Assembly: GCA_035577985.1 (NCBI GenBank)
Contig: DATJZY010000014.1
Coordinates: 569 to 64,568, forward strand
DNA length: 64,000 nucleotides
Reading direction: 5' to 3'
Source of the DNA: Candidatus Eiseniibacteriota bacterium
GTDB lineage: Bacteria; Desulfobacterota; Binatia; DP-6
Positions 1 through 33,042 of the stretch are shown piece after piece; the stretch's first letter is position 1; each line of letters begins with the position of its first letter. The notes beneath the pieces were generated by a model, which worked only from the letters and a program-made list of their open reading frames with translations, was not told the origin of the DNA and searched no databases. A program made the position numbers and the translations under genes.

Positions 1-2614
1 TGAGGAAGCCCTGGCCGGTGCCGTTCGGATCGGTGTTCGCCGCCGGGATGCAGAACACGGTGGCGAGGGTTGCCGCGTGCGACGAATTGAGTGGCATGAG
101 GCTCCCCGATGGGGTTCCTTGCTCGCGGATGTGACGTGCCAGCGTACCGGCGCGCACGCAGCTCCCGGTGGGACCGCCACAGGTGCCGCCGCTGGCCGCC
201 GAGCAGATGTCACCCGCGGGGCACGTGCCCTGCATTCCGGGACCGCCGGAGCACGTTGCGTTGCTGCCGCATCCCGTGGCTCCCGTGGCCGCCGTGCAGC
301 CCTTGCCGACCCGGCTGCCGGACGCACACATGTTGTTCACGTTGCCCAACCGGCAGGTGAAGGTGGCACCGCAGTCGGCGGTCTGCGTCGCGACGGTGCA
401 CGGCAGCCCGCTGTTCGGGCCGTCGAGGCAGACGTTGGTGAGGAACGCGCCGGCCTGGCCAGCGCCCTGCGCGATGCACCGCGGAACCGCGGTCGTGCCG
501 GGGCAGTCGGTATCGACGGTGCACGTGTTGCCGTAGTTCGTGCCGCCGACGCAGCGCGCCTGCGTGCAGAAGAGACCGCTCGCGTTCGACATGTTGGTGA
601 GGCCGGTCGTGAGCGGCGAGAGGTTCACGGGGATGTTGCCGACGAAGATCGCGCAGACGCCGCCGCCGGGGCACTGCGCGTTCGACGTGCAGGCGCCGTT
701 GTTGTTGCTGCCCTTGTAGCAACGGTTCCCGAGCGCGCTCGACGCCGGTGCCGGGCAGTCGTTCGTGAGACCGGAGGAGTTCGTGCTGGTGCATGGATCG
801 CCCTGGTTCGGGCTACCTTCGCAGACGCCGGTGCACGGCGAGCCGGGGGTGCCGGCACACGGAGCGCCGGCGATCGTCCCGATGCGACAGAGCGGGCACG
901 GCTGCGCGGCGTTGCCCGTGACGACCGTCACCGAGCTGAGAGGCAGGGTGAGCGACGCGGCACCGGTCGACGTGTCGAGGGTGCCGCTCGCCGGCGCCGC
1001 GAAGACGTTCTGGACGCAGGTCGTCGTTCCGGCGTTCGGAATCGGCAACGGCGTGCCGAACACGCACCCGGTGTTGGTGCACTTGAAGCCGACCCCGTTG
1101 GCCAGCGTCGCGCCGATGGTGCAGCTCGAGCCCGTGCAGCTGGTCGTGAAGCGGCTCGTGGCGCCGTCCGGCGTCGGCCCCTCGGCCACGGTGGCCGAGC
1201 CGCCGCCGATGTCCAGACCGCTGCAGCCGAGGTTCTTCAGGACGGGGCCTGAGGCGGCCACGTCGCGGAACGTCTGGCCACAGTTCCCCACCCCCGCCGT
1301 CGTCGTGAAGTCGAGGAACGACGGCGTCGCGCCGCCCGTGGTCGTGGTGGTCGACGTCGTGGTGCTGGTGGTGGTGGTCGATGACGTCGAGGTGCTGGTC
1401 GTCGTGCTGGTCGTGGTCGACGTGGTCGTCACGGTCGACGTGGTCGTCGAGGTCGTGGTGCTGGTCGTCGTGCTGGTCGACGTCGACGTCGTGGTCGACG
1501 TGCTGGTGGTCGAGGGCAGCGACGTGCTCGTCGTCGTCGTCGACGACGTGCTGGTCGACGTGGTCGTCGTGGACGACGTCGAGGTCGACGTGGTCGTCGT
1601 CGACGAGGTGCTCGTCGAGGTCGTGCTCGACGTGCTGGTCGACGTGGTCGTGGTGGTCGTGTTGGCCTGGCACTCGGGCGGCAGCGGGCTCACGAACTCC
1701 GGCACCGCGAGGGCGTCGATGCAGTCGACCTTGAACTCGGTGATGCAATCGACGCACTCGACGATGTCGTTCGTGCTCGAGATCGTGGCCGAGCAGCTCG
1801 AGCTGCCGGGCGGCGTCAGCGCCGGGCACACCGGGACGAAGCCGATGGCGCCGGGCGTGAGATCGCCGTTGCCGTCACACATCTTGTCGGGGCCGCCGCA
1901 CGCCTTGCAGATGGAGTCCTGCTTCTTCGACTCGGCGGTCGAGATGAGGATCGCGGCCTTGCCGTCGCCCGGGCTCGGGCACGGATTCGAGTGGATGCCT
2001 TTGATGCGGGCGTCCCAGCACTTCTGCAGGGCCTTCGATTTGGCCTGCAGGAACTTCGCCGTGGCCTTGCCGATCGCCTGCTGGCACTTGTTGACCGTGC
2101 TGTTGGTGCCGAACTCGGCGGTGTTGAGGGCGCCGTAGTAGAGCGCAATGGCCTGATCGACGAGGCCGTTGGCGCTGCACTCGAGACAGGTGCTGATGTC
2201 GTCGCAGTTGTTGATCGCGTTGTTGCAGCCGAAGCTCTCGATGTCGGGACAGAACGGAACGCTGGCCCACCCGATCGACGACAGCGGATCGTCGTCGCCG
2301 CCCGCGCCGCAGATCTTGTCGGCGCCGCCGCACACCTTGGCGATGCCCGTGTCCAGCTTCGTCACGAGCTTGCCGAGCAGCAGCATCGTCTTGGACTCCA
2401 TGGTGCAGTCCTGGGTCGGCGGGAGCGCACCCTTGGTCTTCTGGTCCTCGCACTTCTGGAGGGCCTTGCTGCGCCCCTGGACGTACTTCGCGGACGACTT
2501 GGTGATGCCGCGCTCGCACTTCGCCGGGTCGGCCGAAGCCCCCTGAACGCTCGCGAACAGGATCGCGATCGCAATGAGCCAGCCAGCCCGGATTCGGTGC
2601 GCGTTCTTCGTCAT
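1..2614 (-). CDS. Secreted cysteine-rich modular protein with long Ser/Thr linker; partial, 3' end runs off the left window edge
   Basis: Absent from the ORF track because there is no stop inside the window. Minus-strand ATG at 2614..2612 is preceded by GGAGGGGGATCCC. Translation starts MTKNAHRIRAGWLIAIAILFASVQGASA (signal peptide). It continues with two KC(E/Q)..I.K..AK(Y/F).Q..SKALQKC repeats, a poly-Thr/Ser linker, then a Cys/Gly-rich region. The frame stays open to nt 1, and no listed minus ORF uses this frame. Confidence 0.8.
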   Translation of the reverse strand, partial: MTKNAHRIRAGWLIAIAILFASVQGASADPAKCERGITKSSAKYVQGRSKALQKCEDQKTKGALPPTQDCTMESKTMLLLGKLVTKLDTGIAKVCGGADKICGAGGDDDPLSSIGWASVPFCPDIESFGCNNAINNCDDISTCLECSANGLVDQAIALYYGALNTAEFGTNSTVNKCQQAIGKATAKFLQAKSKALQKCWDARIKGIHSNPCPSPGDGKAAILISTAESKKQDSICKACGGPDKMCDGNGDLTPGAIGFVPVCPALTPPGSSSCSATISSTNDIVECVDCITEFKVDCIDALAVPEFVSPLPPECQANTTTTTTSTSTSSTTSTSTSSTTTTSTSTSSTTTTSTSTSSTTTTSTSLPSTTSTSTTTSTSTSTTTSTTTSTTTSTVTTTSTTTSTTTSTSTSSTTTTSTTTSTTTTTGGATPSFLDFTTTAGVGNCGQTFRDVAASGPVLKNLGCSGLDIGGGSATVAEGPTPDGATSRFTTSCTGSSCTIGATLANGVGFKCTNTGCVFGTPLPIPNAGTTTCVQNVFAAPASGTLDTSTGAASLTLPLSSVTVVTGNAAQPCPLCRIGTIAGAPCAGTPGSPCTGVCEGSPNQGDPCTSTNSSGLTNDCPAPASSALGNRCYKGSNNNGACTSNAQCPGGGVCAIFVGNIPVNLSPLTTGLTNMSNASGLFCTQARCVGGTNYGNTCTVDTDCPGTTAVPRCIAQGAGQAGAFLTNVCLDGPNSGLPCTVATQTADCGATFTCRLGNVNNMCASGSRVGKGCTAATGATGCGSNATCSGGPGMQGTCPAGDICSAASGGTCGGPTGSCVRAGTLARHIREQGTPSGSLMPLNSSHAATLATVFCIPAANTDPNGTGQGFL
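1338..1668. repeat. Low-complexity codon repeat (ACG/ACC/TCG/AGC) encoding a Thr/Ser linker
   Basis: Degenerate gtcgacgtggtcgtc-type tandem repeats. On the minus strand they read TTTTTSTSTSSTTSTSTSSTTTT.... In other frames they create the ghost ORFs 765..2138, 813..1829 and 1381..1734. Confidence 0.85.
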
Positions 2615-3367: not shown

Positions 3368-4396
3368 CTAGCCCTGCCCACGCGATCGCGCCAACCGCAC
3401 TCTGACGCGGGTCCTTGCGCGATTGGGGCGCATGGCGACCGCCGTGCGGGCGATCAGCCCACCGCTCTCGACGACGAGCGAACCCTCCGGCGCAGCCGTC
3501 AGATCGGCGATGCCCGGCCCGCGCAGGCGGATCCGGTACGCGAGGCGTCCGGGCCGTCGCAGCGGCATCACCGACACACGGCTGCCGTCGAACGCCGTCG
3601 CGGCGAATCCCTTCCGGCCCGCCGCCGCCAGCCCGCCGTCGAGCCGCAGCTCCATCGCCGGCGCGGGCCCCAGACGGAGCGTCGTCGGCGTGGTGTCGAA
3701 GGACGCGGGAAGGATCGAATTGGCTTCCAGCACCATCGTCAGCGTTCGCGCGTGGGACGTCGCCAGGCCCGCCACGCGTGACAGACGAGGCGCGAGCGCG
3801 AACTGGTCGAGATCGGGCACCGGCGCCAGCGTGCAGGACAGCGTGAGCAGCAGGTCGACGTCGGCGAGCGGCGGCGACAGCGCGGCCGATCGCCCCACCC
3901 CGACGAGCGCGAATGCACCCGACGCGTCGATCGGCGCCCCGACCACCAGGGTACCACCGGCCATCGCGAAGCCGGACGTGAAGTCCATGGCAACCGAGTC
4001 CGACGTGCCGTCGAGCGTGATCGCCATCGGGAGATCCGCGCGCCGCAGCTCCCCGCTCGAGAGGAGCTGGATCCCGACGAACGCGGGGAACGCGATCGAC
4101 CCGGTGTGCGGGCCCGCGGTGAACGGGCGCGGGCGGATCGCCCCGCAACGGTTCGCTGGATCGATCGGATCCGCGGGGCATACCTGCACGCGGCTCAACG
4201 TCGGGCTCGTCGACGGATCGTACATGACGCGCAGGAGGTCGCCCGCCGCTGGCGCCGCCACGTCGGCGACCACGCCGCCGGCCGGAGCGGAGAGTCCCAT
4301 CGTCACGGCGCACGTGCTCGGAAAGATGGTGACCATGTGCGCGTCAGCCGTGACGGCGACCAGGAAGGCGAACGCGAGGACGGCGCGAACGATCAT
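3368..4396 (-). CDS. Secreted hypothetical protein
   Basis: C-terminal 342 codons of listed ORF 3368..5413, starting MIVRAVLAFAFLVAVTADA (signal peptide). Its ATG overlaps the upstream stop as ATGA (4396..4393). Confidence 0.7.
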   Translation of the reverse strand: MIVRAVLAFAFLVAVTADAHMVTIFPSTCAVTMGLSAPAGGVVADVAAPAAGDLLRVMYDPSTSPTLSRVQVCPADPIDPANRCGAIRPRPFTAGPHTGSIAFPAFVGIQLLSSGELRRADLPMAITLDGTSDSVAMDFTSGFAMAGGTLVVGAPIDASGAFALVGVGRSAALSPPLADVDLLLTLSCTLAPVPDLDQFALAPRLSRVAGLATSHARTLTMVLEANSILPASFDTTPTTLRLGPAPAMELRLDGGLAAAGRKGFAATAFDGSRVSVMPLRRPGRLAYRIRLRGPGIADLTAAPEGSLVVESGGLIARTAVAMRPNRARTRVRVRLARSRGQG

Positions 4397-5547
4397 GGCA
4401 ACCCCGACACGTCGCAATCGCCCCCGGGGGCCGCGTCGTAGACGAGCGCCGTGATCCCGCATACCTCGTCGTCCACGCTGTCGCCGGCGACGTCGTTGGC
4501 CGGCACGCACGCCGCCTGGCCGGGACAGTCGGGGCTGTGCGGCATCGCGAGCGAGCACGGTGCCGCCGGATGGCCGACGCCCCCGGGGACGACGCCCGGT
4601 GTCTCCTCGCATCCGAGCCGAACCGGCGACGACCGGGCACCGTTGTCGAGCCAGCAGCCGTAGCGCAGCGCCTCGCCGGCGCCCACGGCAAGTGCCGACG
4701 AGAAGCCGAGCGCACCCGGGTCGGTGAAGTCGAGGCCGACGAAGAGCTGGCGGCGTCCGGGCGCGCACAGGTTCTCGGGGCTCCCTGTCGGGTTCTTCGT
4801 CTGACCGTCGGTACCGAGGAGATCGACGCCGGCACAGCGTCCGCGGCGGTGCATCTGGCTCGAGAGCCCGAGCACGCACGTATCGGCCGGTGCCGTCCAG
4901 CGAGCGTCGACGAGATTCTCGGTCGCTCCCTCGCTGAACGGAGGAACGAGGATCCCCGCCTCGGCGGTCCGGTCGGAGAGCGGCCGGGCCGTGCGGCGCA
5001 CCTGCTTCGGCTTGGCCGCGCGCAGCACCAGGCGCGTCGACACGACGTGCGTCTTGGTGTCGGCGTTGCCCCAGTTCGTGTCGATGAGCAGCCCGATCGC
5101 CGCCGGCGCGCCGCCGGGTGCATCGGCCACCGGTGCGAGCTCGGCGGCGACCCCCTTCGGCAGCGTTCGCACGAGCTTCTGATTCGAGCCGGCGGTCGCC
5201 ACCAGCACCCGCCGGTCGCGATCGACGGGCCCCAGATCGATGCAGCCGCGGCTCTGCAGCAACGTCTTCTCGGGGAACTCGGCGAGCCGCTCGCCCGTAT
5301 ACAGGTACACGAGAAAGTGGCGTGCTCCCGTGCGACTCTTCGTCCCGGCGTGCGCGACACGCCACGAGCCGAGCGCGAATGGAGCGGTGGCCGGAACCTT
5401 CACGAAATAGCACGTCTCCAGATCGCTCCCCGGTGGGAGCGAAACTCGGGGAACCTTCACGGTGATCGTCCGCCGGTCCCGGCCTTCGGCGACGCCTCCG
5501 GCAACGAGCGCGACGAGAACGAGCAGGACGGGAAGCCGGCGCGTCAT
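4393..5547 (-). CDS. Secreted protein, degenerate paralogue of the C-terminal His-cluster domain of the 29540..31639 gene
   Basis: ORF 4393..5664 trimmed to ATG 5547 (MTRRLPVLLVLVALVAGGVAEG). Shares blocks with the 29540 gene: SPVRLGCEETPGVVPG vs TPVRLGCEEVPGVPPG, and CVPANDVAG vs CVPANLVFG. Confidence 0.75.
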   Translation of the reverse strand: MTRRLPVLLVLVALVAGGVAEGRDRRTITVKVPRVSLPPGSDLETCYFVKVPATAPFALGSWRVAHAGTKSRTGARHFLVYLYTGERLAEFPEKTLLQSRGCIDLGPVDRDRRVLVATAGSNQKLVRTLPKGVAAELAPVADAPGGAPAAIGLLIDTNWGNADTKTHVVSTRLVLRAAKPKQVRRTARPLSDRTAEAGILVPPFSEGATENLVDARWTAPADTCVLGLSSQMHRRGRCAGVDLLGTDGQTKNPTGSPENLCAPGRRQLFVGLDFTDPGALGFSSALAVGAGEALRYGCWLDNGARSSPVRLGCEETPGVVPGGVGHPAAPCSLAMPHSPDCPGQAACVPANDVAGDSVDDEVCGITALVYDAAPGGDCDVSGLP

Positions 5548-5822
5548 CGGACTCCCGAAAGGATCTACCATGCGGACGGGATCCCGGTAACCCGCCGCCT
5601 CGCCCGTCGTGGACGGCCAGTGGCCGATCGTGTGCACCGCATGCCCGCTTGGCCGCGGTACCACGCAGATGCCTCGGCCGATCGGTTCGCCGGCGCCATC
5701 CGGCGTCGTCGCTGGACCTCCCGCACCCTTCCCGCTAACGCCGACCCACGCGCCGGATCCTCTACAGCCTGCTCGTCGCCGCGCTCGCGTGCGGCACGAC
5801 GACCTCGACCGGCACGGGCGAG

Positions 5823-7313: not shown

Positions 7314-8546
7314 TCAGGGCGCGCACGCGCCCGGCGCCGGCGCCAGCTTCGCACTGAACGACTTCGGTGTCTTGAACGTGACCGTACCCGCGAACCGCAT
7401 GCAGTAGTGCTGCGTTCCCATGGTGACGACGACGTCGACCGGATCGGGGTTCGCCGCGAGCGTGTGGCCGAGCTGGCTGCCCTTGGCGGTGATCTTGAGG
7501 ATCTTGTTCGGCTTCACCTGGAACGCCTTCACCGGACCGTTCACCAGCAGGTTGTCCTTGTACTTGTAGCCCTTGTTCTCGCCCTCGTGGCCGACGAGCG
7601 ACCAGAACGACGGGCCGGGCGCGAGGGTGTAGGTGTCGTCGAAGCCGTCGCCGGCCGTCGAGACGATGCGCACCGTCGCGCCGACCGTGCGCGGATCGTC
7701 GCCCGACCCGTTGCCGTCTCCGAGCGTGACGTCGAGGTCCTTCGACTGCACGGTCGCCTTCCGCTTCGCGGCGTTCGCCGGATCGTCCTTCAGCGAGATC
7801 TTGCTGCCGTCGATGAGCTGCGACGGGACGAGCGAGGTCGTGGTGGTGGTCGACGTGGAGGTCGACGTCGTCGACGTGGAGGTGGACGTGGTGGTGACGA
7901 TGGTCGTCGTGGTCGTGGTGGTGCAGCCCGTGAGACTTCCCACGTTGCCGGCGTTGTTCTGCGGTGACGGACACGTGAGGTTGAAGGTCTGGCTACCCGT
8001 CGTGCGCGTCTGGCTCTGCGTGCCGTTGCCCAGCGGTCCCGCGACGACCGGCTGGCCGAGCCGCGTCGGGCCCGTGTAGCCGCCGTAGGCCAGGCAGTCG
8101 ACGTAGTTGTTCACGTCCGCCGCGTTCCACGTCGGCGGGTTCTCGGGGACACTGTTGCCGGGGGCGCCCCAGCAGATGTTGCCGCAGGTCGGATCGATGC
8201 TCCCCGAAAAGGTGAAGTCGGGGTTGATGCCGAAGACCGTGTTGAAGCCGACCGCGCTCGGGCTCGCCATCACCCAGCGCACGTCCTCGCCGGCCATGCC
8301 GACGTTGGCCGGCACCTCGAGAAGGATCGTGGCCGACGTGCCGTCGCAGTTGAAGGCGGTGAGACGGCTGTGCGCCACCAGGTCCTGGAGGATCGCCAGC
8401 ATGCGGATCTCGACGAACTGCACGGTCGGATCGCTCCCGACGCCCGACATGGCCTCGTGGATCTCCGCGAAGTGGAAGCGCGCGCTCGCCGGCGCGACGG
8501 CGAGCAGGACGACGAGCCCGGCAGCGGACAGCGAGCGACCGAACAT
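7314..8546 (-). CDS. Secreted protein: lamin-tail-like N-domain, Thr/Ser linker, C-terminal beta-rich domain
   Basis: ORF 7314..8555. ATG 8546 has GGAGG 8 nt upstream. Signal peptide: MFGRSLSAAGLVVLLAVAPASA. Contains TVQFVEIRM (compare EFxELxN of lamin tail domains) and the linker TTTTTTTIVTTTSTSTSTTSTSTSTTTTTS. Confidence 0.8.
   Translation of the reverse strand: MFGRSLSAAGLVVLLAVAPASARFHFAEIHEAMSGVGSDPTVQFVEIRMLAILQDLVAHSRLTAFNCDGTSATILLEVPANVGMAGEDVRWVMASPSAVGFNTVFGINPDFTFSGSIDPTCGNICWGAPGNSVPENPPTWNAADVNNYVDCLAYGGYTGPTRLGQPVVAGPLGNGTQSQTRTTGSQTFNLTCPSPQNNAGNVGSLTGCTTTTTTTIVTTTSTSTSTTSTSTSTTTTTSLVPSQLIDGSKISLKDDPANAAKRKATVQSKDLDVTLGDGNGSGDDPRTVGATVRIVSTAGDGFDDTYTLAPGPSFWSLVGHEGENKGYKYKDNLLVNGPVKAFQVKPNKILKITAKGSQLGHTLAANPDPVDVVVTMGTQHYCMRFAGTVTFKTPKSFSAKLAPAPGACAP
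7833..7924. repeat. Thr/Ser-linker codon repeat
   Basis: Same gtcgacgtgga/ggtggtg repeat type as 1338..1668. It produces ghost ORFs 7407..7967 and 7633..8079. Confidence 0.8.
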
Positions 8547-8594
8547 GGGCACCACCTCCGTGCGCTCTACGTGCTTACAGACCAGCTCGGATTG

Positions 8595-15176: not shown

Positions 15177-17102
15177 TCAGTCCCCGCCACCGCCGCCGCC
15201 GACGCAGTAGCCGTGCAGGTAGTCGGTGACGGCGGTGATGTCGGCCGCGGAGAACCTCGGGTAGCTGGGCATCTCGTCCGGACCGGACCGGATCGCGTCG
15301 GACATGTCGCCGGCGCTCTGGCACTGGATCTCGGGGCCGTGGACACCGCTCGAGTCGCGGCCACCGCCGCCCGTGGGACCGTGGCACGAGGCGCAGTTCG
15401 AGACGTAGAGGTCGGCCGGCCGATCGGGCCCGCTCGCGGCGCAGAGCCCGTCCAGGTACGTCTGCACGCCCGTCACGTCGGCGTTGGACAGCTCGATCGC
15501 CGTGAAGGCCGGCATGGCGCCGGCGTTCCGGCCGCGGCGAACCGCGTCGGCGATGTCGACGGCGCAGCGCACGTTCGGATCGCCGTTGGCGCCGCGGCCG
15601 TCGGCCGCGTGACAGGCCCCGCAGTTGCTCGTGTAGAGATCCACGCCCGTGCGACCGCTCGCGTCGCAGAGTCCCGTCAGGTACCCGGCGAGCGTCGCGA
15701 TGTCGGCGTCGCTGAGATTGGCGAACGCCGGCATCGCGTCCGGACCGGTGCCCTGTCCGAGGCGCACCGGGTCGTGGATCTTCACCGCGCAGCGCACGTC
15801 GGGCCGGCCCTGGACGCCGCGCGCGTCGGTGCCGTGACACGAGCCGCAGTTCGACTCGTAGAGATCGGCCGGCCGATCGATTCCGCTCGCGGTGCACAGC
15901 CCGGCGAGATACGCCTCGATGCTCGCGACGTCCGCATTCGACAGCTCGGCGGACGAGTACGCCGGCATGTCGCTGCCCTTGCCGCTGCGAACGGCGTCGT
16001 TGACGTCCGACGAGCAGCGCACGTTCGGGTTGTCGCCGACGCCGCGCGCGTCGGCGCCGTGGCACGTCGAGCAGTTGCTCGTGTAGAGATCCACGCCCGT
16101 GCGGCCGCTCGCGTCGCAGAGGCCCGCGAGGTAGCCCGCCAGCGTCGTGATGTCGGCGTCGGTCAGGTTGTCGAACTTCGGCATCGCGTCGGGGCCCGTG
16201 CCCTTGCCGAGGCGTACCGGGTCGTGGATCTTCACCGCGCAGCGGATGTCGGGGCGACCCTGGAGCCCGCGTGCGTCGTCGCCGTGGCACGACGCGCAGT
16301 TGTCGGCGTAGAGCTGCTGCTCGGGCGAGCCGCTTCCCGGCCCGCCGCCCGGCGGGCCGCCGCATACGCCCTGCACGACGAGGTCGACCCAGTGCCGCAG
16401 GATCTGCTCCTCGGGGCTCCCGGCCACGAGGCGTTGGCCGCCGCCGTGGGGGATGAGGTTCAGGGGCTTGCGGAGAATGCGCGACGCGTCCGGATTGGCG
16501 ACGTTGATGTGAAGCGCCACGCTGGCCTGCGTCGCGAGCGGATCGCCCGGCGTCACGCGGAAGGTCGTCATCGCCGCCTGCCCGGTCGCGCTGTGGCAGG
16601 CCTGGCAGACGGGCACCAGCACCTTCGGCATCACCTCGTCGGTGAAGTACGAGTTGTCGCACGCCGGCGGGCCTCCACCGCCCGAGGAGTCGGTCGTGCG
16701 GCGCGTGAGTCGCATCCGTCCACGGACCTTCATCCCGGGTCGCGCGAGCAGCGCCCGACCGCGGAGCCCGTCGGCCGTCACCTTGCCGAGCCACACGAGG
16801 CGCGTCCCGTCGGTGCTCGCGCCCACGAGGCGCACGCGGCGCCTGCGGACGCGACCCTGCATCGTGTAGATCGTCGACGCGCTCATGCTCATCGCACCCA
16901 GCGCCAGCGTGCCGGTGACGGTCGAGCCGAACGCCTGGAGCGCACCCGCCACGTCTGCAGTTTCTTGCGAGTGCGCGACCGTGACCTGACCTTCGTACGA
17001 GGCCGTGAGGTCGACCGCCGCGGACGCGGCGTCCCCATCGGGCGCCCACGCGAGCGCCAGGAGTGCCAGAATCAGCGCGCGGGTGCGAACGGCGATACGC
17101 AT
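15177..17102 (-). CDS. Secreted multihaem c-type cytochrome with six CxxCH motifs, five of them in tandem class-I-like domains
   Basis: Haem motifs: CQACH, CASCH, CSTCH, CGSCH, CGACH, CASCH. Each ~75-aa domain also has an xMP Met ligand and two further Cys. Signal peptide: MRIAVRTRALILALLALAWA, starting at ATG 17102. Confidence 0.9.
   Translation of the reverse strand: MRIAVRTRALILALLALAWAPDGDAASAAVDLTASYEGQVTVAHSQETADVAGALQAFGSTVTGTLALGAMSMSASTIYTMQGRVRRRRVRLVGASTDGTRLVWLGKVTADGLRGRALLARPGMKVRGRMRLTRRTTDSSGGGGPPACDNSYFTDEVMPKVLVPVCQACHSATGQAAMTTFRVTPGDPLATQASVALHINVANPDASRILRKPLNLIPHGGGQRLVAGSPEEQILRHWVDLVVQGVCGGPPGGGPGSGSPEQQLYADNCASCHGDDARGLQGRPDIRCAVKIHDPVRLGKGTGPDAMPKFDNLTDADITTLAGYLAGLCDASGRTGVDLYTSNCSTCHGADARGVGDNPNVRCSSDVNDAVRSGKGSDMPAYSSAELSNADVASIEAYLAGLCTASGIDRPADLYESNCGSCHGTDARGVQGRPDVRCAVKIHDPVRLGQGTGPDAMPAFANLSDADIATLAGYLTGLCDASGRTGVDLYTSNCGACHAADGRGANGDPNVRCAVDIADAVRRGRNAGAMPAFTAIELSNADVTGVQTYLDGLCAASGPDRPADLYVSNCASCHGPTGGGGRDSSGVHGPEIQCQSAGDMSDAIRSGPDEMPSYPRFSAADITAVTDYLHGYCVGGGGGGD
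15621..16310. repeat. Intragenic tandem duplication with a 450-nt period (two-domain cytochrome unit)
   Basis: gcagttgctcgtgtagagatccacgcccgtgcg recurs at 15621 and 16071. The flanking ~240 nt are nearly identical between the two copies. Confidence 0.8.
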
Positions 17103-17147: not shown

Positions 17148-17702
17148 CTATGTCGTCGGCGTCCGTCCTCCGCGGGCCACCGTGTTTCCTAAAGCCTTGA
17201 TGAAGTCACGAAGCCGCGCTCGGACGAGGCCCCGGCGCGGCTCGATTCCCGTGCGCAGGAATGCCAACACGCCGGCGGCGCTGACGCGGCCCGCGGTTCG
17301 ATCGATCGACCGGTAGCGCACCGTACGATCGCGTCCGATCACGAACACGGACGGCACCGCGATGCCGCCGTGCTCTTTCGGGTTGTAGATGTCCCACGCA
17401 CGGACGACCTCACGGCGCTGGTCACAGAGGATCGGAAAGCCGAGGCCCAGTTCGCGGCGCACGGGCTCGGAACGGCCCGCGTCGTCAACGGACACGGCGA
17501 CGAGGTCCGCGCCCAGCGCGCGGAGCGTGTCGCGTTGCGCCTCGTACTCCGCCAACTGGCGAAGACAGAACGGTCACCAGTGCCCACGGTAGAAGATGAG
17601 GACGAGGTCGCGCGTCGCCGTGAGCGCGGAGAGCGCACGCGGCGCGCCGGTCGTGTCGGGAAGGATGAAGTCGGGCGCGGTCTGACCGACCTCGGGCGTC
17701 AT
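17148..17702 (-). CDS. Peroxiredoxin-like (PRX_like2/AhpC-TSA) thiol oxidoreductase with in-frame TGA at the catalytic Cys position; candidate selenoprotein
   Basis: Translation from ATG 17702: MTPEVGQTAPDFILPDTTGAPRALSALTATRDLVLIFYRGHW-TGA(17576..17574)-PFCLRQLAEYEAQRD.... It runs in frame into listed ORF 17148..17555. The family motif FxRGxWCPxC places the TGA on the first Cys. Confidence 0.65.
17547..17564 (-). promoter_or_regulatory. Candidate bacterial SECIS hairpin
   Basis: CUUCGCC-AGUU-GGCGGAG, 7 bp including one G-U pair. It starts 9 nt after the UGA, and the G/U-containing loop begins 17 nt after the UGA. Confidence 0.45.
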
Positions 17703-17715
17703 CTGCCTGCGCTCT

Positions 17716-18297
17716 CTACCGATCGGGCAGCAGCGAGTCCACCTCGATCCGCACGTCGGTGAACGCCGCGAGATCGATCGTGTCTCCGCGGCGCGCCGTC
17801 GTCACGCGGCGGTAGCGGCGTCCTCGCCGATCGGGCCGCCGCCGGATCTCGACCGTGTCGTCCCGCAGGTTGACGATCCAGTAGTCCTGGACGCCGCGCG
17901 CCGCGTAGATGGCCGCCTTGGTCAGGCGATCCTGGGGTAGCGACGATTCCGCGACCTCGACGACGAGGAGTGCGTCGGTGGGATGCGCGTGGTCGTAGGC
18001 GTGATCGTCGCCCACCGCCATGACGACGTCGGGCTCGGGTACGGACGCCGGTGGCAAGACGAGCGAGGACTGGCAGCGGAGGGTCGCCCGCGAGCCCACG
18101 GCTCGCAGCAGGGCGCGGAAGACGTGATTCACCGCAGCATCGTGCCGCGCCGTCCGGGGAGCCATCGCCACCACCACCCCTTCCAGCAGCTCGACGCGAT
18201 CCTCCTCTGCCAGCACGCCCCGCGTGGTGAGCGCGAGGTACTGCTTGACGGTGAGTCGCTTCGATGCCGCGGGTTCCTTGCGGGCGGGCAGCGTCAC
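17716..18297 (-). CDS. Uma2 (DUF820) family endonuclease
   Basis: LTVKQYLALTTRGVLAEEDRVELLEGVVVAMAP ... ALLVVEVAESS ... KAAIYAARGVQDYWIVN. GTG 18297 was chosen as the first start after the upstream stop. Confidence 0.75.
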   Translation of the reverse strand: MTLPARKEPAASKRLTVKQYLALTTRGVLAEEDRVELLEGVVVAMAPRTARHDAAVNHVFRALLRAVGSRATLRCQSSLVLPPASVPEPDVVMAVGDDHAYDHAHPTDALLVVEVAESSLPQDRLTKAAIYAARGVQDYWIVNLRDDTVEIRRRPDRRGRRYRRVTTARRGDTIDLAAFTDVRIEVDSLLPDR

Positions 18298-18308
18298 GGC
18301 TGCGAAGC

Positions 18309-19400
18309 CTAGACCTCCGGGCGCGGAGCGACAATCCCTCGGGTCGTCACATGACGGCGCGAGCGGTCGAGCATCGGCGCCTCGACGAGATGCCACGAGG
18401 CGATCGCGAACGGCAGTGTGACGAGAAACGCGGCAACGAAGAAGGGCCGCTCGGGGAGCTTCGGCCCGAAGACGTGCAGGATCACCTGCTGCACGGGATA
18501 CGCGTACAGGTAGAGGCCGTACGAGAAGTCGCCGAAGCGCCCGAAGCGCGCGAGCGGAAGCCACGACGCGCAGGCGAGGTAGAGGAGCAGGTAGGCACCG
18601 GCGACCGGGAAGATCCAGACGAGTCCGCCCGCGCGCGCGGCGACGAGGAGCGCCACGGCCGCGGCCGCCGCGAGCGCGCCGCGATAGGGAACGTGGTCGC
18701 GGAATTCGTAGAGCGCCATGCCGGTCGCGTAGCAGGCGAGGAGCTTCGCGCCCCAGCTCGCCCAGGTGGGCGCGGCGACGCCGGAGGCGTGCAGCAGGGC
18801 GTTTCCGGCGACCGACCCGGCGGCGATCGCGATCACGGCCGGCCGCCAGATCCGCCGGCCGAGCATGCCCACGATGCCGGTCATGACGTAGCAGGCGATC
18901 TCGTAGCGCAGCGACCAGAGCGAGCCGTTCAGCTGGTTCTTGAACGTGTTGCGTGGGAACACGCCGGGGACGGCACTCCACGCGTGCGCGAAGAGCCCGG
19001 GGAAGTGGAGCCACGTCCGCGCCGACGTGAGGTACGTGCCGAGCGGCTGCGTCGTGACGAAGGGGCCGATCGCGAAGACGCCGACGGCCATCGCCACGAG
19101 GAGCCCCGGCAGCACGCGCCGCGCCCGTTTCTCGGCGAAGCGGGCGAGGCCGGCCGTTCCGAGCCAGCTCTGCGTCACCAGGAAGCCCGACACGATGAAG
19201 AAGCCCTCGACGCCGACGGCGCCCCCGCTCATCTGCCGCCCGGAGAAGGCGAGGAGCGGATCGAGCTCGGCGTCGAGCGAGTACGCGTGCGACCACAGGA
19301 CCAAGGTCGCGAGCGCGAAGCGGAGCGCGTCGAAGTTGTTGCGGCCGCGATCGTACGCCGTCGCGAGCGTTCGGCCCACGTCAGTCGAGCTCGAACTCAC
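18309..19400 (-). CDS. Acyltransferase family 3 (OafA-like O-acyltransferase) membrane protein
   Basis: NNFDALRFALATLVLWSHAY ... GVEGFFIVSGFLV ... WSLRYEIACY, with about 10 TM segments. Confidence 0.85.
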   Translation of the reverse strand: MSSSSTDVGRTLATAYDRGRNNFDALRFALATLVLWSHAYSLDAELDPLLAFSGRQMSGGAVGVEGFFIVSGFLVTQSWLGTAGLARFAEKRARRVLPGLLVAMAVGVFAIGPFVTTQPLGTYLTSARTWLHFPGLFAHAWSAVPGVFPRNTFKNQLNGSLWSLRYEIACYVMTGIVGMLGRRIWRPAVIAIAAGSVAGNALLHASGVAAPTWASWGAKLLACYATGMALYEFRDHVPYRGALAAAAAVALLVAARAGGLVWIFPVAGAYLLLYLACASWLPLARFGRFGDFSYGLYLYAYPVQQVILHVFGPKLPERPFFVAAFLVTLPFAIASWHLVEAPMLDRSRRHVTTRGIVAPRPEV

Positions 19401-29539: not shown

Positions 29540-31639
29540 CTACTCGGCGCTACCGCCGACGCACGGCGTGCCGTCCGTCGGGCACCGGTAGTACAGGCCC
29601 GGCAGGATGCACATGTCGTCGTCCGCGAGCTCGCCGAAGACGAGGTTCGCCGGCACGCAGCGGCCGGTGCCGAAGCCGGCGCAGTCGGCGTCGGTGCGGC
29701 ACCACTTCGACGCCCCGCCGTATGTGTCGCCGCCCGCGAGCACCTGCTCCACGATCGACTTCCCGGGCGGCACGCCCGGCACCTCTTCGCAGCCGAGGCG
29801 CACCGGGGTCGTGACGCCGTTGTCGTGCGTGCAGGTGTAGACGAGCTTCTCGCCCTTCTGGACGATGATCGGCGGCCAGAAGGCGCGGCTCACCGGGTCG
29901 GAGTACTCGGTGCTGACGGCGAGATGCTTCGACCCGTCGGTCGCGTCGGTCATGTCGTCGGGCTGCTCGATGCGCTTGCCGTCGAGGCCGAAGAGGTCGG
30001 TCACGAAGTTCGTGGCGCGCTTGTGCATGTGGGACGTGACGCCCATCAGCGCGAAGCTGTCGCCCACCGGGTCGGCCTCGCCCGCGAGGCTGCAGAACGG
30101 ATCGGGAGCGCCGGTCGCCGGGTTGGCGTAGAACGCGCACGAGAGGTAGCTCGCCGCGTCGCTCACCTGCCCCGGTGGGACCTTGATGAAGACGTTCGCG
30201 ATCTCCTCGAACAGGATGCGCGCCCGGTGCGTCACGAGCGACGAATCGACCGGCGTCACGTTCACCCACACCTCCGCCATCGTGTCGGCGAACGGGTTCG
30301 TGTAGTGCGAGTTCAAGAGCAGCGGCTGGTTCTTGTGCATGTGCAGCGCGACGCCGGTCTCCGCCGTCTGGTAGTCGACCAGGTAGTGCGGCGTCTGCCC
30401 GCCGACGACGAACGCCCAGTCGTACCCGAACTGCTCGCAGGGGACGAAGCCGGTCGGGAAGCGGGCGTCGAAGCCCGGCTCGTCGCAGTCGGAGATGCCG
30501 TTGTCGTCCCGATCGAGGCAGCGGTTCGCACGCAGGATGAAGTGGTGGCTGCCCTCGTGCATGAAGAGCTCCCACTGCCCCACGTCGAATTCGCTCTCGT
30601 TGCCGAGGCGCACCATCTGGCACCCCTCGGTCTCCGGCAGGTCGCCCAGCATGAACGGGTCCATGTGAGCCTGGAAGCCGCCCGCGGGCACGGCCGGCGC
30701 CGGGATGCGCGGCTGCCGGTCGACCTCGCCCGAGAGGCTACCGCTGATGACGCGCTCGCGCGGCGCGCCGGCGAGGATCCACTTGCGGATCATCTCGACC
30801 TGGTCGTCGGGAAGTGGCTTCCGCCCCTGGGGCATCTGCACGCCCTCGCCGGGCGCGAGCTTCCCCTCGAGCTTGTCCATGAGGAAGCTCGTCTCCGGCG
30901 CACCGGGGACCACGCGCTTCTTGCCGGCGAACTGCGCGACCGAGGTGGTCGCGATCTGTCCGACGAGGCTCTGGTAGACGCCGTCGCCGGCGAGCACGAG
31001 CCCCGCCTGCGGGTTCTCGACGCCGTGGCAGCCCGAGAAGGCGCAGCTCTTGTCGAACACGCGCTTCTGGATCGTCGCGAAGCTGATCCCACCGCGACGC
31101 TTCTCCTTCACGGGGGGCTTGCAGAGGAACGTCACGCCGTCGGCGTCGCCGGTGCCGTCCCCTGCCGTGGTCGCGAGCGCGAACCGCTTGCGCCCCGCGC
31201 GGGCGCTGCCGTTCGCGCGCGTGCCGAGGGGCACCGTCAGCGTCGTCATGGCCCCGCAGGCGTCGGCGGTCGTCGCGGGCTTGTCGACCAGGTCGAGCGT
31301 GCGCGAGAGCATCTCCAGGTCGGCGTCGCCGCCCGCACCGGTGACCGCCGCGCTCGTGACGCCGCCCGCCGCACACGCTTCGCTGCCGTCGAGGCACACG
31401 CGCACCCAGTACTCGCACTTGCCGTTGACGAGATGGTCGCGGTCGCAGACGCGATCGCCGTCGTGACACGAGACGACTCGCGCGCGCGGCGCCGCCGACG
31501 CGCCCGTGACGTCGAGGGTCGCCAGGCAATCGCCCGCCTTGGGCCCGCCCCCCATGAGCTGCGTCGCACCGCCCGGCGCGGCCTGGGCGACGACCATCCC
31601 GAGCGTGAGCGCCAGCGGCAGCATGGCGAAGCGTCGCAT
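29540..31639 (-). CDS. Secreted three-part protein: Cys-rich module, CX4CH haem-like motif region, and a His-cluster domain reminiscent of a type-2 Cu monooxygenase
   Basis: Signal peptide: MRRFAMLPLALTLGMVVAQA. Cys-rich module: CHDGDRVCDRDHLVNGKCEYWVRVC ... VTFLCKP. Haem-like region: KSCAFSGCHGVENPQAGLVLAG. His cluster: GSHHFIL, NSHYTNP, TSHMHKRA. Confidence 0.8.
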   Translation of the reverse strand: MRRFAMLPLALTLGMVVAQAAPGGATQLMGGGPKAGDCLATLDVTGASAAPRARVVSCHDGDRVCDRDHLVNGKCEYWVRVCLDGSEACAAGGVTSAAVTGAGGDADLEMLSRTLDLVDKPATTADACGAMTTLTVPLGTRANGSARAGRKRFALATTAGDGTGDADGVTFLCKPPVKEKRRGGISFATIQKRVFDKSCAFSGCHGVENPQAGLVLAGDGVYQSLVGQIATTSVAQFAGKKRVVPGAPETSFLMDKLEGKLAPGEGVQMPQGRKPLPDDQVEMIRKWILAGAPRERVISGSLSGEVDRQPRIPAPAVPAGGFQAHMDPFMLGDLPETEGCQMVRLGNESEFDVGQWELFMHEGSHHFILRANRCLDRDDNGISDCDEPGFDARFPTGFVPCEQFGYDWAFVVGGQTPHYLVDYQTAETGVALHMHKNQPLLLNSHYTNPFADTMAEVWVNVTPVDSSLVTHRARILFEEIANVFIKVPPGQVSDAASYLSCAFYANPATGAPDPFCSLAGEADPVGDSFALMGVTSHMHKRATNFVTDLFGLDGKRIEQPDDMTDATDGSKHLAVSTEYSDPVSRAFWPPIIVQKGEKLVYTCTHDNGVTTPVRLGCEEVPGVPPGKSIVEQVLAGGDTYGGASKWCRTDADCAGFGTGRCVPANLVFGELADDDMCILPGLYYRCPTDGTPCVGGSAE

Positions 31640-31648
31640 GGGTCGGTG

Positions 31649-32254
31649 TTACGAGGCGACCCGTCGAGCTGTCAACCGACCGATCAGCCGCGGAACGAAG
31701 CGCCCCGTCCGCTGCGCGTAGTCGGCGTACGCCGGACCGAACCGGGCCTCGAGCAGCCGCTCCTCGACGCGCGCCTCGGCGGTCGTCGCGACGAGATATA
31801 GCGGCCACAGCGCGAGCAGCACGACGTCGAGCGTCGCGAGCGCGGCGCCGAGCCAGAGCGCGAGATCGCCCGAATACGCCGGGTGGCGCACGAGCGCATA
31901 CGGACCCGACGTCGCGAGCGCGTGGTCGGGGAACACGACGGCCTGCGGGACGAGCTGTCGTCCCAGCGTCGCCGCCGCCCGGAGCATCATGACCGCCGCG
32001 TACAGACCGAGCGCGAGGCCCGCGAGCCGCACGACGGGCCACGCGCGGTCGAGCTCGCCCACGCGGGCGAGCATGATCGCGGCCGGCACGAGGAAGGCCA
32101 CCGGCAGCAGCACCGCCGGCAGCCATCGCCGCGCACCGGTCGCCCGCTGCGCCGATCCGGGAATGCGCGCCGCCAACGGCAGCACGCGCACGACGAGCAC
32201 GACGAGCGCGACGGCGTAGCCGGCCAGAAAGCCGAAGCGGAGGGCGTCGGCCAT
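31649..32254 (-). CDS. Isoprenylcysteine carboxyl methyltransferase (ICMT/PEMT) family membrane protein
   Basis: TSGPYALVRHPAYSGDLALWLG, with 4-5 TM segments. Confidence 0.8.
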   Translation of the reverse strand: MADALRFGFLAGYAVALVVLVVRVLPLAARIPGSAQRATGARRWLPAVLLPVAFLVPAAIMLARVGELDRAWPVVRLAGLALGLYAAVMMLRAAATLGRQLVPQAVVFPDHALATSGPYALVRHPAYSGDLALWLGAALATLDVVLLALWPLYLVATTAEARVEERLLEARFGPAYADYAQRTGRFVPRLIGRLTARRVAS

Positions 32255-32263
32255 GCGACCGCC

Positions 32264-32998: not shown

Positions 32999-33042
32999 GC
33001 CATCCTCCTGCGCCGGCACGCGGCCGGCGCGTCGTTGCCGGC

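What the first reader, a model, noticed from the sequence alone, without database searches (positions are those of the whole stretch)
17148..17702. Peroxiredoxin-like gene with TGA at the catalytic Cys position plus a downstream hairpin: candidate selenoprotein
The ORF track shows only a fragment (17148..17555) that starts at an internal TTG. Reading the same frame upstream gives ATG 17702 and MTPEVGQTAPDFILPDTTGAPRALSALTATRDLVLIFYRGHW-TGA-PFCLRQLAEYEAQRD. The stop (17576..17574) sits where the PRX_like2/AhpC-TSA family carries the first Cys of FxRGxWCPxC, which would make a U-x-x-C redox centre. Nine nt after the UGA, a 7-bp hairpin CUUCGCC/AGUU/GGCGGAG begins. Its G/U-containing loop lies 17 nt from the UGA, inside the 16-37 nt range used for bacterial SECIS models. 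The gene lies 45 nt upstream of a six-haem cytochrome gene.
Basis: partly seen in the sequence, partly recalled or inferred. Interest (0 to 1): 0.8.

Follow-up and report, generated by a model that had tools for sequence, protein, structure and literature searches.

The report
Miscalled peroxiredoxin-like selenoprotein gene
This is a real gene for a small redox enzyme that uses the rare amino acid selenocysteine, encoded by a "stop" codon that gene finders misread and so truncate the gene; the enzyme family has been known as a selenoprotein family since 2004, so the find is solid but ordinary.

Summary
On the minus strand, ATG 17702 to TAG 17148 is one 184-codon reading frame interrupted only by TGA 17576..17574. 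The Pfam AhpC-TSA profile matches end to end across that TGA.

The same TGA occurs at the same column in all 29 related loci fetched (several phyla by record title, 51-92% nucleotide identity). Full-length homologues carry Cys there. The sequence upstream of the TGA evolves as coding sequence.

An 18-nt hairpin (17564..17547, loop AGUU) lies 16 nt after the UGA and meets every criterion of the published bacterial SECIS model. Its synonymous sites are frozen (p about 1e-5): Leu+7 is always the rare TTG and Ala+8 always GCG. Two Cys-form homologues encoding the same peptide use other codons and have no hairpin.

The Sec residue sits at the first position of a thioredoxin-style U-x-x-C. The second Cys is the one that aligns with the classical peroxidatic Cys. 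This is the catalogued "Prx-like thiol:disulfide oxidoreductase" (PF00578, UxxC) selenoprotein family.

No Sec machinery lies in the window, which says little for 64 kb. Novelty: a new, systematically mis-annotated member of a known kind.

The parts
17148..17702 (-). Complete selenoprotein coding sequence: 184 codons (M1...U43...C46...T184) plus TAG. It encodes a Prx-like thiol:disulfide oxidoreductase with a U-P-F-C centre.
   Evidence: Translation. Pfam AhpC-TSA 7.3e-28 covers residues 5-130, which is profile 1-123 of 124 and crosses the TGA. Orthologues have the same architecture.
17574..17576 (-). In-frame TGA, read as selenocysteine codon 43.
   Evidence: TGA is at this column in 29 of 29 related loci plus the window. 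Cys (TGC) is there in full-length homologues L026 and L031. TGA is otherwise a normal stop in this window, ending 17 of 29 genes.
17547..17564 (-). Bacterial SECIS-type hairpin CUUCGCC-AGUU-GGCGGAG. It has 7 bp in the window and 6 bp in most homologues. The loop starts 16 nt after the UGA.
   Evidence: -9.9 kcal/mol, 0 of 200 shuffles as good. Conserved in all TGA loci. Synonymous sites are frozen, permutation p = 1e-5. Absent from the Cys forms. It meets the bSECIS criteria quoted in PMC13188914.
17565..17567 (-). TGT, Cys46: the second residue of the U-x-x-C centre and the equivalent of the classical peroxidatic Cys of peroxiredoxins.
   Evidence: HMMER alignments to Bcp/PrxQ structures 2cx3 and 2ywn. 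Kept in all full-length subfamily members examined, while the first position varies among U, C, S and A.
17553..17555 (-). TTG, Leu49 (Leu+7 after the Sec codon). It is the invariant codon spanning the hairpin loop and 3' arm, and the artefactual 'start codon' of the truncated 135-aa gene call.
   Evidence: the ORF listing fragment 17148..17555. Truncated database proteins start LAEY/LADY. TTG in 24 of 24 sequences, although TTG is only 3.7% of Leu codons in the window.
17151..17255 (-). Conserved C-terminal extension beyond the Prx domain (residues about 150-184, motif ...DF..A..N....G.RTP), predicted helical.
   Evidence: Conserved columns in the alignment (A121, N124, G129, P133 of the truncated numbering). 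AlphaFold2 model of the Cys homologue has helix 171-184 with block pLDDT about 95. This part is not covered by the solved Prx structures (TM normalised by query about 0.7 against 0.88 by target).

Best explanation
Region 17702..17148 (minus strand) is one intact gene for a 184-residue cytoplasmic, peroxiredoxin-fold redox protein whose codon 43 (UGA) is decoded as selenocysteine.

Proposed mechanism (inferred from the standard bacterial pathway): when the ribosome reaches the UGA, the hairpin 10-27 nt downstream recruits SelB.GTP.Sec-tRNA(Sec), and Sec is inserted instead of terminating. The hairpin has a G-U-containing AGUU tetraloop starting 16 nt after the UGA.

The product carries a thioredoxin-style U43-P-F-C46 centre at the N-terminus of the first long helix of a BCP/AhpE-like Prx scaffold. 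Sec is the exposed nucleophile. C46, the equivalent of the Prx peroxidatic Cys, resolves it through a selenenylsulfide that a cellular thiol reductant re-reduces. The protein would therefore act as a thiol:disulfide or hydroperoxide oxidoreductase.

Shown here: the continuous conserved ORF, the TGA conserved across phyla, the Cys/Sec pairing with homologues, the conserved hairpin with frozen synonymous sites that only the TGA forms have, and the Prx fold.

Inferred: actual Sec insertion in this organism, the SelB-hairpin interaction, the substrate and the reductant.
For: 1. ORF continuity. The Pfam AhpC-TSA profile is matched 1-123 of 124 across the TGA.

2. Conservation of the TGA. All 25 loci, plus L029/L030 and L032/L033, have TGA at the same column in FYRG[HNA]W-U-P[FM]C. 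Record titles name Binatus/Binataceae, 'uncultured delta proteobacterium', Armatimonadota, Acidiferrales and Polyangiaceae. Nucleotide identity among the genes is 51-91%.

3. Cys/Sec pair. Sandaracinus P0003 and L031 read FYRGHW-C-PFCLRQL.

4. The upstream part is coding. It is 61% identical to P0003. Median pN/pS is 0.39 upstream against 0.32 downstream. Against L032 there are 6 synonymous and 3 non-synonymous changes (binomial p = 0.018 against neutral expectation).

5. RNA element. Codon entropy at positions +4..+8 is 0.17 bits against 1.16 elsewhere (p = 1e-5). The only 6-codon windows with more than 90% third-position identity are codons +2..+10. Leu+7 is TTG and Ala+8 is GCG in 24 of 24 sequences. 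All four substitutions at stem bases are C to U opposite G, so wobble pairing is kept. Both Cys forms use CUC/CUG at Leu+7 and form no hairpin.

6. All bSECIS model criteria are met.

7. TGA is otherwise a normal stop here.

8. Lineage uses Sec. The window's Lgt is 76% identical to a Binatia MAG protein. At least 9 Binatia-type loci also carry a UGSC-motif selenoprotein gene about 3.6 kb away.

9. Fold. The AlphaFold2 model has pLDDT 91.6, with the Sec-equivalent residue immediately before helix 48-59. The best PDB matches are BcpB, AhpE and Bcp4.

10. The family is catalogued as a selenoprotein family.
Against: No selA, selB, selD or tRNA-Sec was found in the window or in about 530 kb of related loci, so Sec decoding in this organism is not shown directly.

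The hairpin has no compensatory (double-sided) covariation. Three pairs never vary and three vary on one side only, so the shuffle control is uninformative. The case for the structure rests on conservation and on fit to a deliberately loose model, which 15% of random TGAs in this DNA also satisfy.

The spacing of 16 nt is at the lower limit of the model.

With 5' context included, an alternative fold competes.

The window-versus-L029 comparison alone gives N-terminal dN/dS of about 0.7 on only 42 codons.

No biochemical data exist for this subfamily.
Confidence: 0.9

Rival explanations
1. The gene is a pseudogene, or the TGA is a sequencing or assembly error replacing TGC/TGT. Nothing full-length is made.
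For: Gene callers treat it as a stop, and only the 135-aa fragment is in the databases. No Sec machinery is seen in the window.
Against: The identical TGA occurs in 29 of 29 independently sequenced related loci at 51-92% nucleotide identity. The upstream part is under purifying selection, including in the window's own lineage. A hairpin with frozen synonymous sites accompanies the TGA and is absent from the TGC forms.
Confidence: 0.03
2. UGA terminates here. The locus yields a 42-residue peptide and, separately, a 135-residue protein started at the TTG at 17555. The conserved hairpin would act as a translational coupling or re-initiation element rather than a SECIS.
For: The invariant TTG is a legal start codon lying 21 nt after the stop. 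The conservation data alone cannot separate 'SECIS' from 'some other RNA element' because there is no covariation.
Against: The 135-residue product would lack strands beta1-beta3 and the whole redox motif of the fold. The Pfam profile and the AF2 model need residues 5-46. Full-length single-chain Cys forms exist with Cys exactly at the TGA column. The Sec/Cys alternation at a CxxC-type position is the signature of selenoproteins, and PF00578 with UxxC is a catalogued selenoprotein family. The element fits all bSECIS criteria.
Confidence: 0.04
3. UGA is read through or reassigned to a standard amino acid (Trp, Cys or Gly) without selenocysteine.
For: One distant full-length database homologue reads HW-W-PFC at this column (P0048). 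That could be a true Trp or a TGA translated under genetic code 4.
Against: TGA ends 17 of 29 Pfam-supported genes in the window, so the code is standard. The position is the nucleophilic residue of a redox motif, where Trp or Gly would be inactive. The hairpin is specific to the TGA forms. Related genomes carry a second classic selenoprotein gene, of the UGSC family.
Confidence: 0.02

Closest known systems
Prx-like thiol:disulfide oxidoreductase selenoprotein family (PF00578, UxxC/UxxU). PMC13188914 Table 1 lists it as 'predicted with high confidence' and attributes it to its reference 12, with Geobacter sulfurreducens WP_010940744.1 as representative. It corresponds to 'Prx-like 1' of the GOS survey (PMC2398784).
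   Same: Same Pfam domain. Same U-x-x-C motif, with Sec at the first position. Cys-containing homologues exist. A SECIS hairpin lies directly after the UGA. It is found in 'deltaproteobacterial'-type lineages.
   Different: I could not obtain the representative's sequence, and it was not among the hits or 69 that I examined, so subfamily identity is untested. The clade here has a conserved C-terminal helical tail, an almost invariant hairpin, and mostly Sec forms (about 33 truncated against about 7 full-length clusters among the top 150). No NCBIfam model reaches its cut-off.
Canonical peroxiredoxins of the BCP/PrxQ and AhpE types (PDB 5epf, 1xxu, 3hjp, 2cx3)
   Same: Same fold: TM-score 0.88 normalised by target, rmsd 1.7-2.5 A. 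The peroxidatic Cys aligns with C46.
   Different: The other catalytic residues are replaced. The Pro of PxxxT/SxxC is Arg39, the Thr/Ser is Sec43, and the conserved Arg before the beta-strand is Pro (GIAVP-SVFVI against VAKR-AVFIV). It is therefore not a classical Prx active site but a CxxC-type one. From memory, this matches the description of CDD group PRX_like2 (cd02970); I did not test that here.
PrxU, the Sec-containing peroxiredoxin (TxxU; NCBIfam NF040737)
   Same: A Prx-fold selenoprotein with a SECIS inside the coding region.
   Different: In PrxU the Sec replaces the peroxidatic Cys (T-x-x-U). Here Sec is three residues earlier (U-x-x-C). The score is 28 bits against a cut-off of 270.
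SelL and SelL-related redox proteins (NCBIfam NF040769; PMC2398784 calls SelL 'a Prx-like protein')
   Same: Best NCBIfam hit. A Prx-like scaffold carrying a CxxC-derived motif that contains Sec.
   Different: 41 bits against a cut-off of 120, with only residues 7-105 matched, so it is not a member.
Escherichia coli fdhF-type bacterial SECIS and the bSECISearch consensus model
   Same: A hairpin inside the ORF directly after the UGA, with a small apical loop carrying G then U, as the model's N-G-[G/U]-N pattern requires. From my own knowledge, the fdhF loop is GGUC and begins after a similar spacing.
   Different: It is shorter (6-7 bp, tetraloop, no bulged U), with spacing at the model's lower limit of 16 nt. 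There is no primary-sequence similarity. Binding to SelB is untested.
ResA/CcmG/TlpA thiol-disulfide oxidoreductases of cytochrome c maturation
   Same: W-C-x-x-C-type motif on a thioredoxin-like fold. Sequence hits to ResA structures have E-values of 1e-10 to 1e-6. In the window the gene sits next to a c-type cytochrome gene.
   Different: Those proteins are exported or membrane-anchored. This one has only 4 residues before the domain and so no signal sequence or anchor, whereas the cytochrome has a signal peptide. The adjacency is absent in L029 and in the Binatia-type loci.

Membership tests
Bacterial selenoprotein gene (generic criteria) | In-frame UGA aligned with Cys in full-length homologues (Cys/Sec pair) | tested here: met
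   P0003/L026 and L031 have TGC at the column. P0040, P0041, P0061 and P0070 have Cys there.
Bacterial selenoprotein gene (generic criteria) | UGA-containing homologues in other organisms, with conserved coding sequence on both sides | tested here: met
   29 of 29 related loci. pN/pS is 0.39 upstream and 0.32 downstream.
Bacterial selenoprotein gene (generic criteria) | bSECIS: apical loop of 3-9 nt and upper stem of 4-16 bp | tested here: met
   Loop AGUU (4 nt). Stem of 7 bp in the window and 6 bp in the consensus. Criteria taken from PMC13188914.
Bacterial selenoprotein gene (generic criteria) | bSECIS: G in the first two loop positions, usually followed by G or U | tested here: met
   The loop A-G-U-U is invariant in all sequences.
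Bacterial selenoprotein gene (generic criteria) | bSECIS: 16-37 nt between the UGA and the apical loop | tested here: met
   16 nt, the lower limit.
Bacterial selenoprotein gene (generic criteria) | bSECIS: MFE of -7.5 kcal/mol or lower | tested here: met
   -9.9 kcal/mol (window) and -10.9 kcal/mol (consensus) for the hairpin alone.
Bacterial selenoprotein gene (generic criteria) | Base-pair covariation supporting the SECIS helix | tested here: inconclusive
   0 compensatory pairs. There are 4 one-sided C to U changes that keep G.U pairing, and the shuffle control is uninformative. Support comes instead from frozen synonymous sites.
Bacterial selenoprotein gene (generic criteria) | selA, selB, selC (tRNA-Sec) and selD present in the same genome | not testable with these tools
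   None lies in the 64-kb window or in the fetched loci, and the rest of the genome is not available. Indirect support: UGSC selenoprotein genes in related Binatia-type loci.
Bacterial selenoprotein gene (generic criteria) | Selenium actually incorporated in the protein | not testable with these tools
   This needs 75Se labelling or mass spectrometry.
Prx-like thiol:disulfide oxidoreductase selenoprotein family (PF00578, UxxC/UxxU) | AhpC/TSA (PF00578) domain | tested here: met
   97.4 bits against a cut-off of 26, over the full profile.
Prx-like thiol:disulfide oxidoreductase selenoprotein family (PF00578, UxxC/UxxU) | U-x-x-C redox motif | tested here: met
   W-U-P-F-C. Family definition from PMC13188914 Table 1 and PMC2398784 Table 2.
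Prx-like thiol:disulfide oxidoreductase selenoprotein family (PF00578, UxxC/UxxU) | Detectable orthology to the catalogued representative (WP_010940744.1) | not tested
   That sequence cannot be retrieved with these tools.
Canonical peroxiredoxin | Active-site PxxxT/SxxC plus the conserved Arg | tested here: not met
   Alignments to 2cx3 and 2ywn show Pro replaced by Arg39, Thr/Ser by Sec43 and Arg by Pro. Only the Cys is kept.
PrxU selenoperoxiredoxin (NF040737) | Model score above cut-off; TxxU motif | tested here: not met
   28 bits against 270. The motif is UxxC, not TxxU.
SelL-related redox protein (NF040769) | Model score above cut-off | tested here: not met
   41.1 bits against 120.
ResA/CcmG-type cytochrome c maturation oxidoreductase | N-terminal signal sequence or membrane anchor (periplasmic location) | tested here: not met
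   The domain starts at residue 5 of MTPEVGQTAPDF..., and there is no hydrophobic N-terminal segment. NF002854 ResA scores 41 bits against a cut-off of 170.

The most novel reading that the evidence does not exclude
This could be a distinct, previously uncurated subfamily of Prx-like selenoproteins. Three features would define it. First, the Sec form predominates over the Cys form. Second, an 18-nt SECIS is kept almost base for base across several phyla, which would point to horizontal spread of the gene together with its recoding signal, or to an unusually strict SelB requirement. Third, it has a conserved C-terminal amphipathic helix of unknown role. In the window's lineage it might also be co-transcribed and functionally coupled with an exported six-haem cytochrome c.
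Probability: 0.15. Interest if true: 0.4.

Novelty: new member of a known kind. Interest (0 to 1): 0.3.

Why it matters
The main value is to annotation. In every public source sampled, this gene is recorded as a 129-147-residue 'peroxiredoxin' that starts at an internal TTG and lacks its active site. About 33 of the top 150 clusters at 50% identity are such truncations. No NCBIfam model captures the clade, so automatic pipelines will keep miscalling it.

It also adds evidence that Binatia-type soil bacteria use selenocysteine. Several of those loci carry two selenoprotein genes within 4 kb. No paper in the searched library contains both 'Binatia' and 'selenocysteine'.

The nearly invariant short hairpin is a convenient minimal SECIS for experiments.

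It does not change what is known about Sec decoding or about peroxiredoxin-like proteins.

Tried and rejected
1. Rfam at gathering thresholds and ARAGORN on the window found nothing. ARAGORN on 29 loci found no tRNA at all.

2. tblastn with E. coli SelA, SelB and SelD against the window and all loci (about 530 kb) gave no hits. This is uninformative for such short fragments.

3. A scan of the window for further split ORFs with TGA and coding potential on both sides found no second selenoprotein candidate. The other hits are ordinary stops or antisense frames.

4. The L011 candidate SAY-TGA-PMC proved to be a low-complexity antisense frame and was rejected.

5. The AIRS/AIRS_C gene next to the homologue in L002/L003 was considered as selD. 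It sits in a pur gene cluster (purL, purF, purN-type neighbours) and did not match E. coli SelD, so it is more likely purM.

6. A functional link to the neighbouring cytochrome through conserved synteny was rejected. The adjacency is present only in the 92%-identical relative L032. It is absent in L029 and in all Binatia-type, Armatimonadota and other loci examined.

7. Covariation testing of the hairpin was uninformative, because there are no double-sided changes.

8. The single-sequence folding z-score was not significant in longer contexts.

9. A look-up of the window's own truncated protein in the contig index returned nothing on record.

10. The metagenome scan for Cys forms encoding the identical peptide found only one locus. 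It is a useful control but leaves only two Cys-form controls.
Full report
OBSERVATION. The ATG is at 17702. There are 42 sense codons ending ...LVLIFYRGHW, then TGA at 17576..17574, then PFCLRQLAEYEA... for 141 more codons to TAG at 17150..17148. The mechanical ORF list holds only 17148..17555, which starts at a TTG. The window is 71% G+C.

ONE GENE, NOT TWO. With Cys placed at the TGA, the Pfam AhpC-TSA profile is matched from profile position 1 to 123 of 124 by residues 5-130 (97 bits; Redoxin 72 bits). The TGA therefore lies inside the domain. A product starting at the TTG would lack the first three strands and the redox motif.

HOMOLOGUES.
- A word-indexed search of 5.8 billion proteins returned about 20 proteins of 129-145 residues that cover only about 72% of the query. 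They begin LAEY.../LADY..., just after the TGA column. It also returned one close full-length protein, from Sandaracinus amylolyticus (P0003, 53% identity), which reads FYRGHW-C-PFCLRQL.
- I fetched the DNA for several truncated proteins and for 19 loci from species-representative genomes. Every one reads FYRG[H/N/A]W-TGA-P[F/M]C in frame: 25 of 25 loci, plus L029/L030 and L032/L033.
- Record titles name Candidatus Binatus/Binataceae, 'uncultured delta proteobacterium', Armatimonadota, Candidatus Acidiferrales and Polyangiaceae.
- The 24 distinct genes of the first set are 51-91% identical at the nucleotide level. The window is only 54-61% identical to them.
- In several loci the gene caller even lists a separate 42-46-residue 'gene' immediately upstream.
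- A sequencing error or a private pseudogene cannot explain an identical stop codon at one column across this divergence.

THE UPSTREAM PART IS TRANSLATED.
- The window's 42 N-terminal residues are 61% identical to the Cys-form protein (E = 9e-19). That is higher than the 53% for the whole protein.
- Across 276 pairs, the 38 codons before the TGA have median pN/pS of 0.39, against 0.32 after it.
- Against a 92%-identical syntenic relative (L032, also NCBI GCA_973790065.1), the window differs at 9 codons upstream (6 synonymous) and at 32 downstream (24 synonymous). The TGA and the following 13 codons are unchanged. Six or more synonymous changes out of nine has p = 0.018 under a neutral 28% expectation.
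- The window-versus-L029 pair alone is inconclusive (dN/dS about 0.7 on 42 codons).

THE HAIRPIN.
Alone it folds at -9.9 kcal/mol, with 0 of 200 shuffles as good. The consensus form CUCCGCC AGUU GGCGGAC folds at -10.9 kcal/mol.
- In longer contexts the z-scores are weak (-0.55, -1.37), and a fold that pairs the UGA region itself competes.
- Fifteen per cent of all TGA triplets in this window are followed by chance by a hairpin that passes the model, and 2.3% by one as good. One sequence therefore proves little.
- The comparative picture is different. The element is nearly invariant in all TGA loci.
- Among 70 conserved four- or six-fold degenerate codon columns, mean codon entropy is 1.16 bits outside the hairpin codons. 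In the four that lie in the hairpin (Leu+4, Arg+5, Leu+7, Ala+8) it is 0.17 bits (permutation p = 1e-5).
- The only 6-codon windows in the whole gene with more than 90% third-position identity are codons +2 to +10.
- Leu+7 is TTG in 24 of 24 sequences, although TTG makes up only 3.7% of Leu codons in the window's genes. Ala+8 is GCG in 24 of 24.
- The four substitutions that touch stem bases are all C to U opposite G, so pairing is kept as G.U. One of them (L006) is a non-synonymous Arg to Cys change. At Leu+4 the variant is the rare CUU rather than the common CUG.
- There is no compensatory double change, so formal covariation tests say nothing. The seventh pair (C13-G30) forms in only 3 of 23 distinct sequences, including the window.
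- Two Cys-form controls encode the same C-L-R-Q-L peptide. Sandaracinus uses UGC UUG CGC CAG CUC GGC, and L031 uses UGU CUG CGC CAG CUG GAA. Neither forms the hairpin.
- The exact peptide with Cys is very rare: one hit among 241 million metagenome records.

COMPARISON WITH THE BACTERIAL SECIS MODEL. A 2026 review (PMC13188914) states the model as: a 3-9 nt loop, a 4-16 bp stem, G in the first two loop positions (usually followed by G or U), 16-37 nt between UGA and loop, and an MFE of -7.5 kcal/mol or lower. The element has a 4-nt loop A-G-U-U, 6-7 bp, 16 nt spacing and -9.9 kcal/mol. All criteria are met, with the spacing at the lower limit.

GENETIC CODE AND Sec TRAIT.
- TGA ends 17 of 29 Pfam-supported genes in the window (TAG ends 12, TAA none), so UGA is not reassigned.
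- No tRNA, no Rfam family and no SelA, SelB or SelD homologue lies in the window or in the fetched loci. Pfam annotation of 40 window ORFs found nothing related to selenium. For a 64-kb fragment this is uninformative.
- Indirect support exists. The window's Lgt is 76% identical to a protein of a 'Candidatus Binatia bacterium' MAG.
- In at least nine Binatia-type loci a second gene with an in-frame TGA, EALAD-U-GSCTT, lies about 3.6 kb from the Prx-like gene. This is the catalogued UGSC selenoprotein family, Pfam PF24696.

WHAT THE PROTEIN IS.
- HMMER alignments to solved Bcp/PrxQ structures place the classical peroxidatic Cys opposite C46. The Thr/Ser of the Prx signature PxxxT/SxxC lies opposite the Sec. 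The signature Pro is Arg39 here, and the conserved catalytic Arg is a Pro. The centre is thus a thioredoxin-type W-U-x-x-C on a Prx scaffold, not a classical Prx site.
- An AlphaFold2 model of the full-length Cys homologue is confident (pLDDT 91.6, pTM 0.88). It puts the Sec-equivalent residue immediately before helix 48-59, the usual place of the CxxC nucleophile. It also shows an extra conserved C-terminal helix, 171-184.
- Its best PDB neighbours are M. tuberculosis BcpB and AhpE and S. solfataricus Bcp4, with TM 0.88 over the target.
- An exhaustive HMMER search shows about 33 of the top 150 clusters at 50% identity to be truncated (Sec) calls, and about 7 to be full-length proteins reaching the C-terminal tail. 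In the latter the first motif position is C, S, A or (once) W, while the second Cys is kept.
- The protein has only four residues before the domain, so it has no export signal.

CONTEXT.
- The gene order on the minus strand is acyltransferase_3 (18309..19400), Uma2 nuclease (17719..18318), the selenoprotein gene, and then a 641-residue protein with a signal peptide, six CxxCH motifs and five cbb3-type cytochrome c domains (15177..17102). On the plus strand lie an unknown ORF, a carboxylesterase and a sulfotransferase.
- L032 has the same order, including the cytochrome, but lacks Uma2. The window carries a 614-bp insertion at 17744..18357.
- L029 (75% protein identity) keeps acyltransferase, selenoprotein, esterase and sulfotransferase but has no cytochrome.
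- The other loci have unrelated neighbours. There is therefore no conserved partner.
- No promoter-like or terminator-like site separates the genes.

COMPARISON WITH WHAT IS KNOWN.
- 'Prx-like thiol:disulfide oxidoreductase' (PF00578; UxxC, UxxU) is listed among prokaryotic selenoprotein families 'predicted with high confidence' (PMC13188914 Table 1).
- It was tabulated in Geobacter, Syntrophus and Desulfotalea genomes in 2006 (PMC1794560).
- 'Prx-like 1' (pfam00578, UxxC) had 225 Sec sequences in the GOS ocean survey (PMC2398784).
- The gene here meets the features that define that family. It does not meet those of canonical Prx, PrxU (TxxU; 28 bits against 270) or SelL-related proteins (41 bits against 120).
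- No NCBIfam model reaches its cut-off, and all database entries sampled are truncated. The clade appears uncurated, but it is not a new kind of thing.

VERDICT. This is a bona fide, mis-called selenoprotein gene with a compact conserved SECIS: a new member (possibly a new subfamily) of a known selenoprotein family. My confidence is 0.9. The remainder is mostly the untested presence of Sec machinery in this genome. Interest is modest at 0.3.

Noticed in passing
L006 13347..13868; also L007 about 13600, L009 about 13596, L010 about 4067, L013 about 13612, L015 about 4584, L016 about 13595, L022 about 15050, L025 about 13599: A second selenoprotein gene of the UGSC family (EALAD-TGA-GSCTT, Pfam PF24696) lies about 3.6 kb from the Prx-like gene in Binatia-type genomes. 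Gene callers split it into two ORFs, and it has its own hairpin after the TGA.
   Followed up: partly
window 17744..18357 (Uma2 ORF 17719..18318, minus strand): Relative to the 92%-identical syntenic locus L032, the window carries a 614-bp insertion encoding a Uma2-family putative endonuclease. It is inserted into the 3' end of the acyltransferase gene, and its ORF ends in ancestral sequence only 13 nt before the selenoprotein start codon.
   Followed up: partly
window 15177..17102 (minus strand): A 641-residue exported protein with six CxxCH motifs spaced about 75 residues apart (five cbb3-type mono-haem cytochrome c domains in tandem, plus one earlier site). It lies 45 nt downstream of the selenoprotein gene. 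The adjacency is conserved in L032 but absent in L029.
   Followed up: partly
window 17553..17555 and the database proteins P0001-P0022: The 'start codon' of all the truncated database entries is the invariant TTG (Leu+7) inside the SECIS hairpin. This makes a systematic annotation artefact: about 33 of the top 150 clusters at 50% identity in the exhaustive search.
   Followed up: yes
protein P0048, no locus available: A low-GC full-length homologue reads FYRGHW-W-PFC. The Trp at the Sec column may be a TGA translated under genetic code 4 by the gene caller, which would make it another hidden Sec form. I could not check this because its DNA is not retrievable.
   Followed up: no
window 38604..41314 (plus strand): ComA-like phosphosulfolactate synthase and ComB-like 2-phosphosulfolactate phosphatase genes overlap and are followed by a GT4 glycosyltransferase. 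A polysaccharide flippase and a PMT_2 glycosyltransferase lie nearby. This may be a sulfonated sugar or sulfolactate-related surface polysaccharide locus.
   Followed up: no
window, whole: No TAA stop codon occurs among the 29 Pfam-supported genes (17 TGA, 12 TAG). Several long ORFs with high GC3 have no Pfam match (765..2138, 4393..5664, 7314..8555, 29540..31639, 31883..33532, 37094..38464).
   Followed up: no
L032/L033 13654..14160: The close relative carries a second, uninterrupted AhpC-TSA/thioredoxin-like gene (168 aa) about 3 kb beyond lgt. I did not examine whether the window has the equivalent.
   Followed up: no
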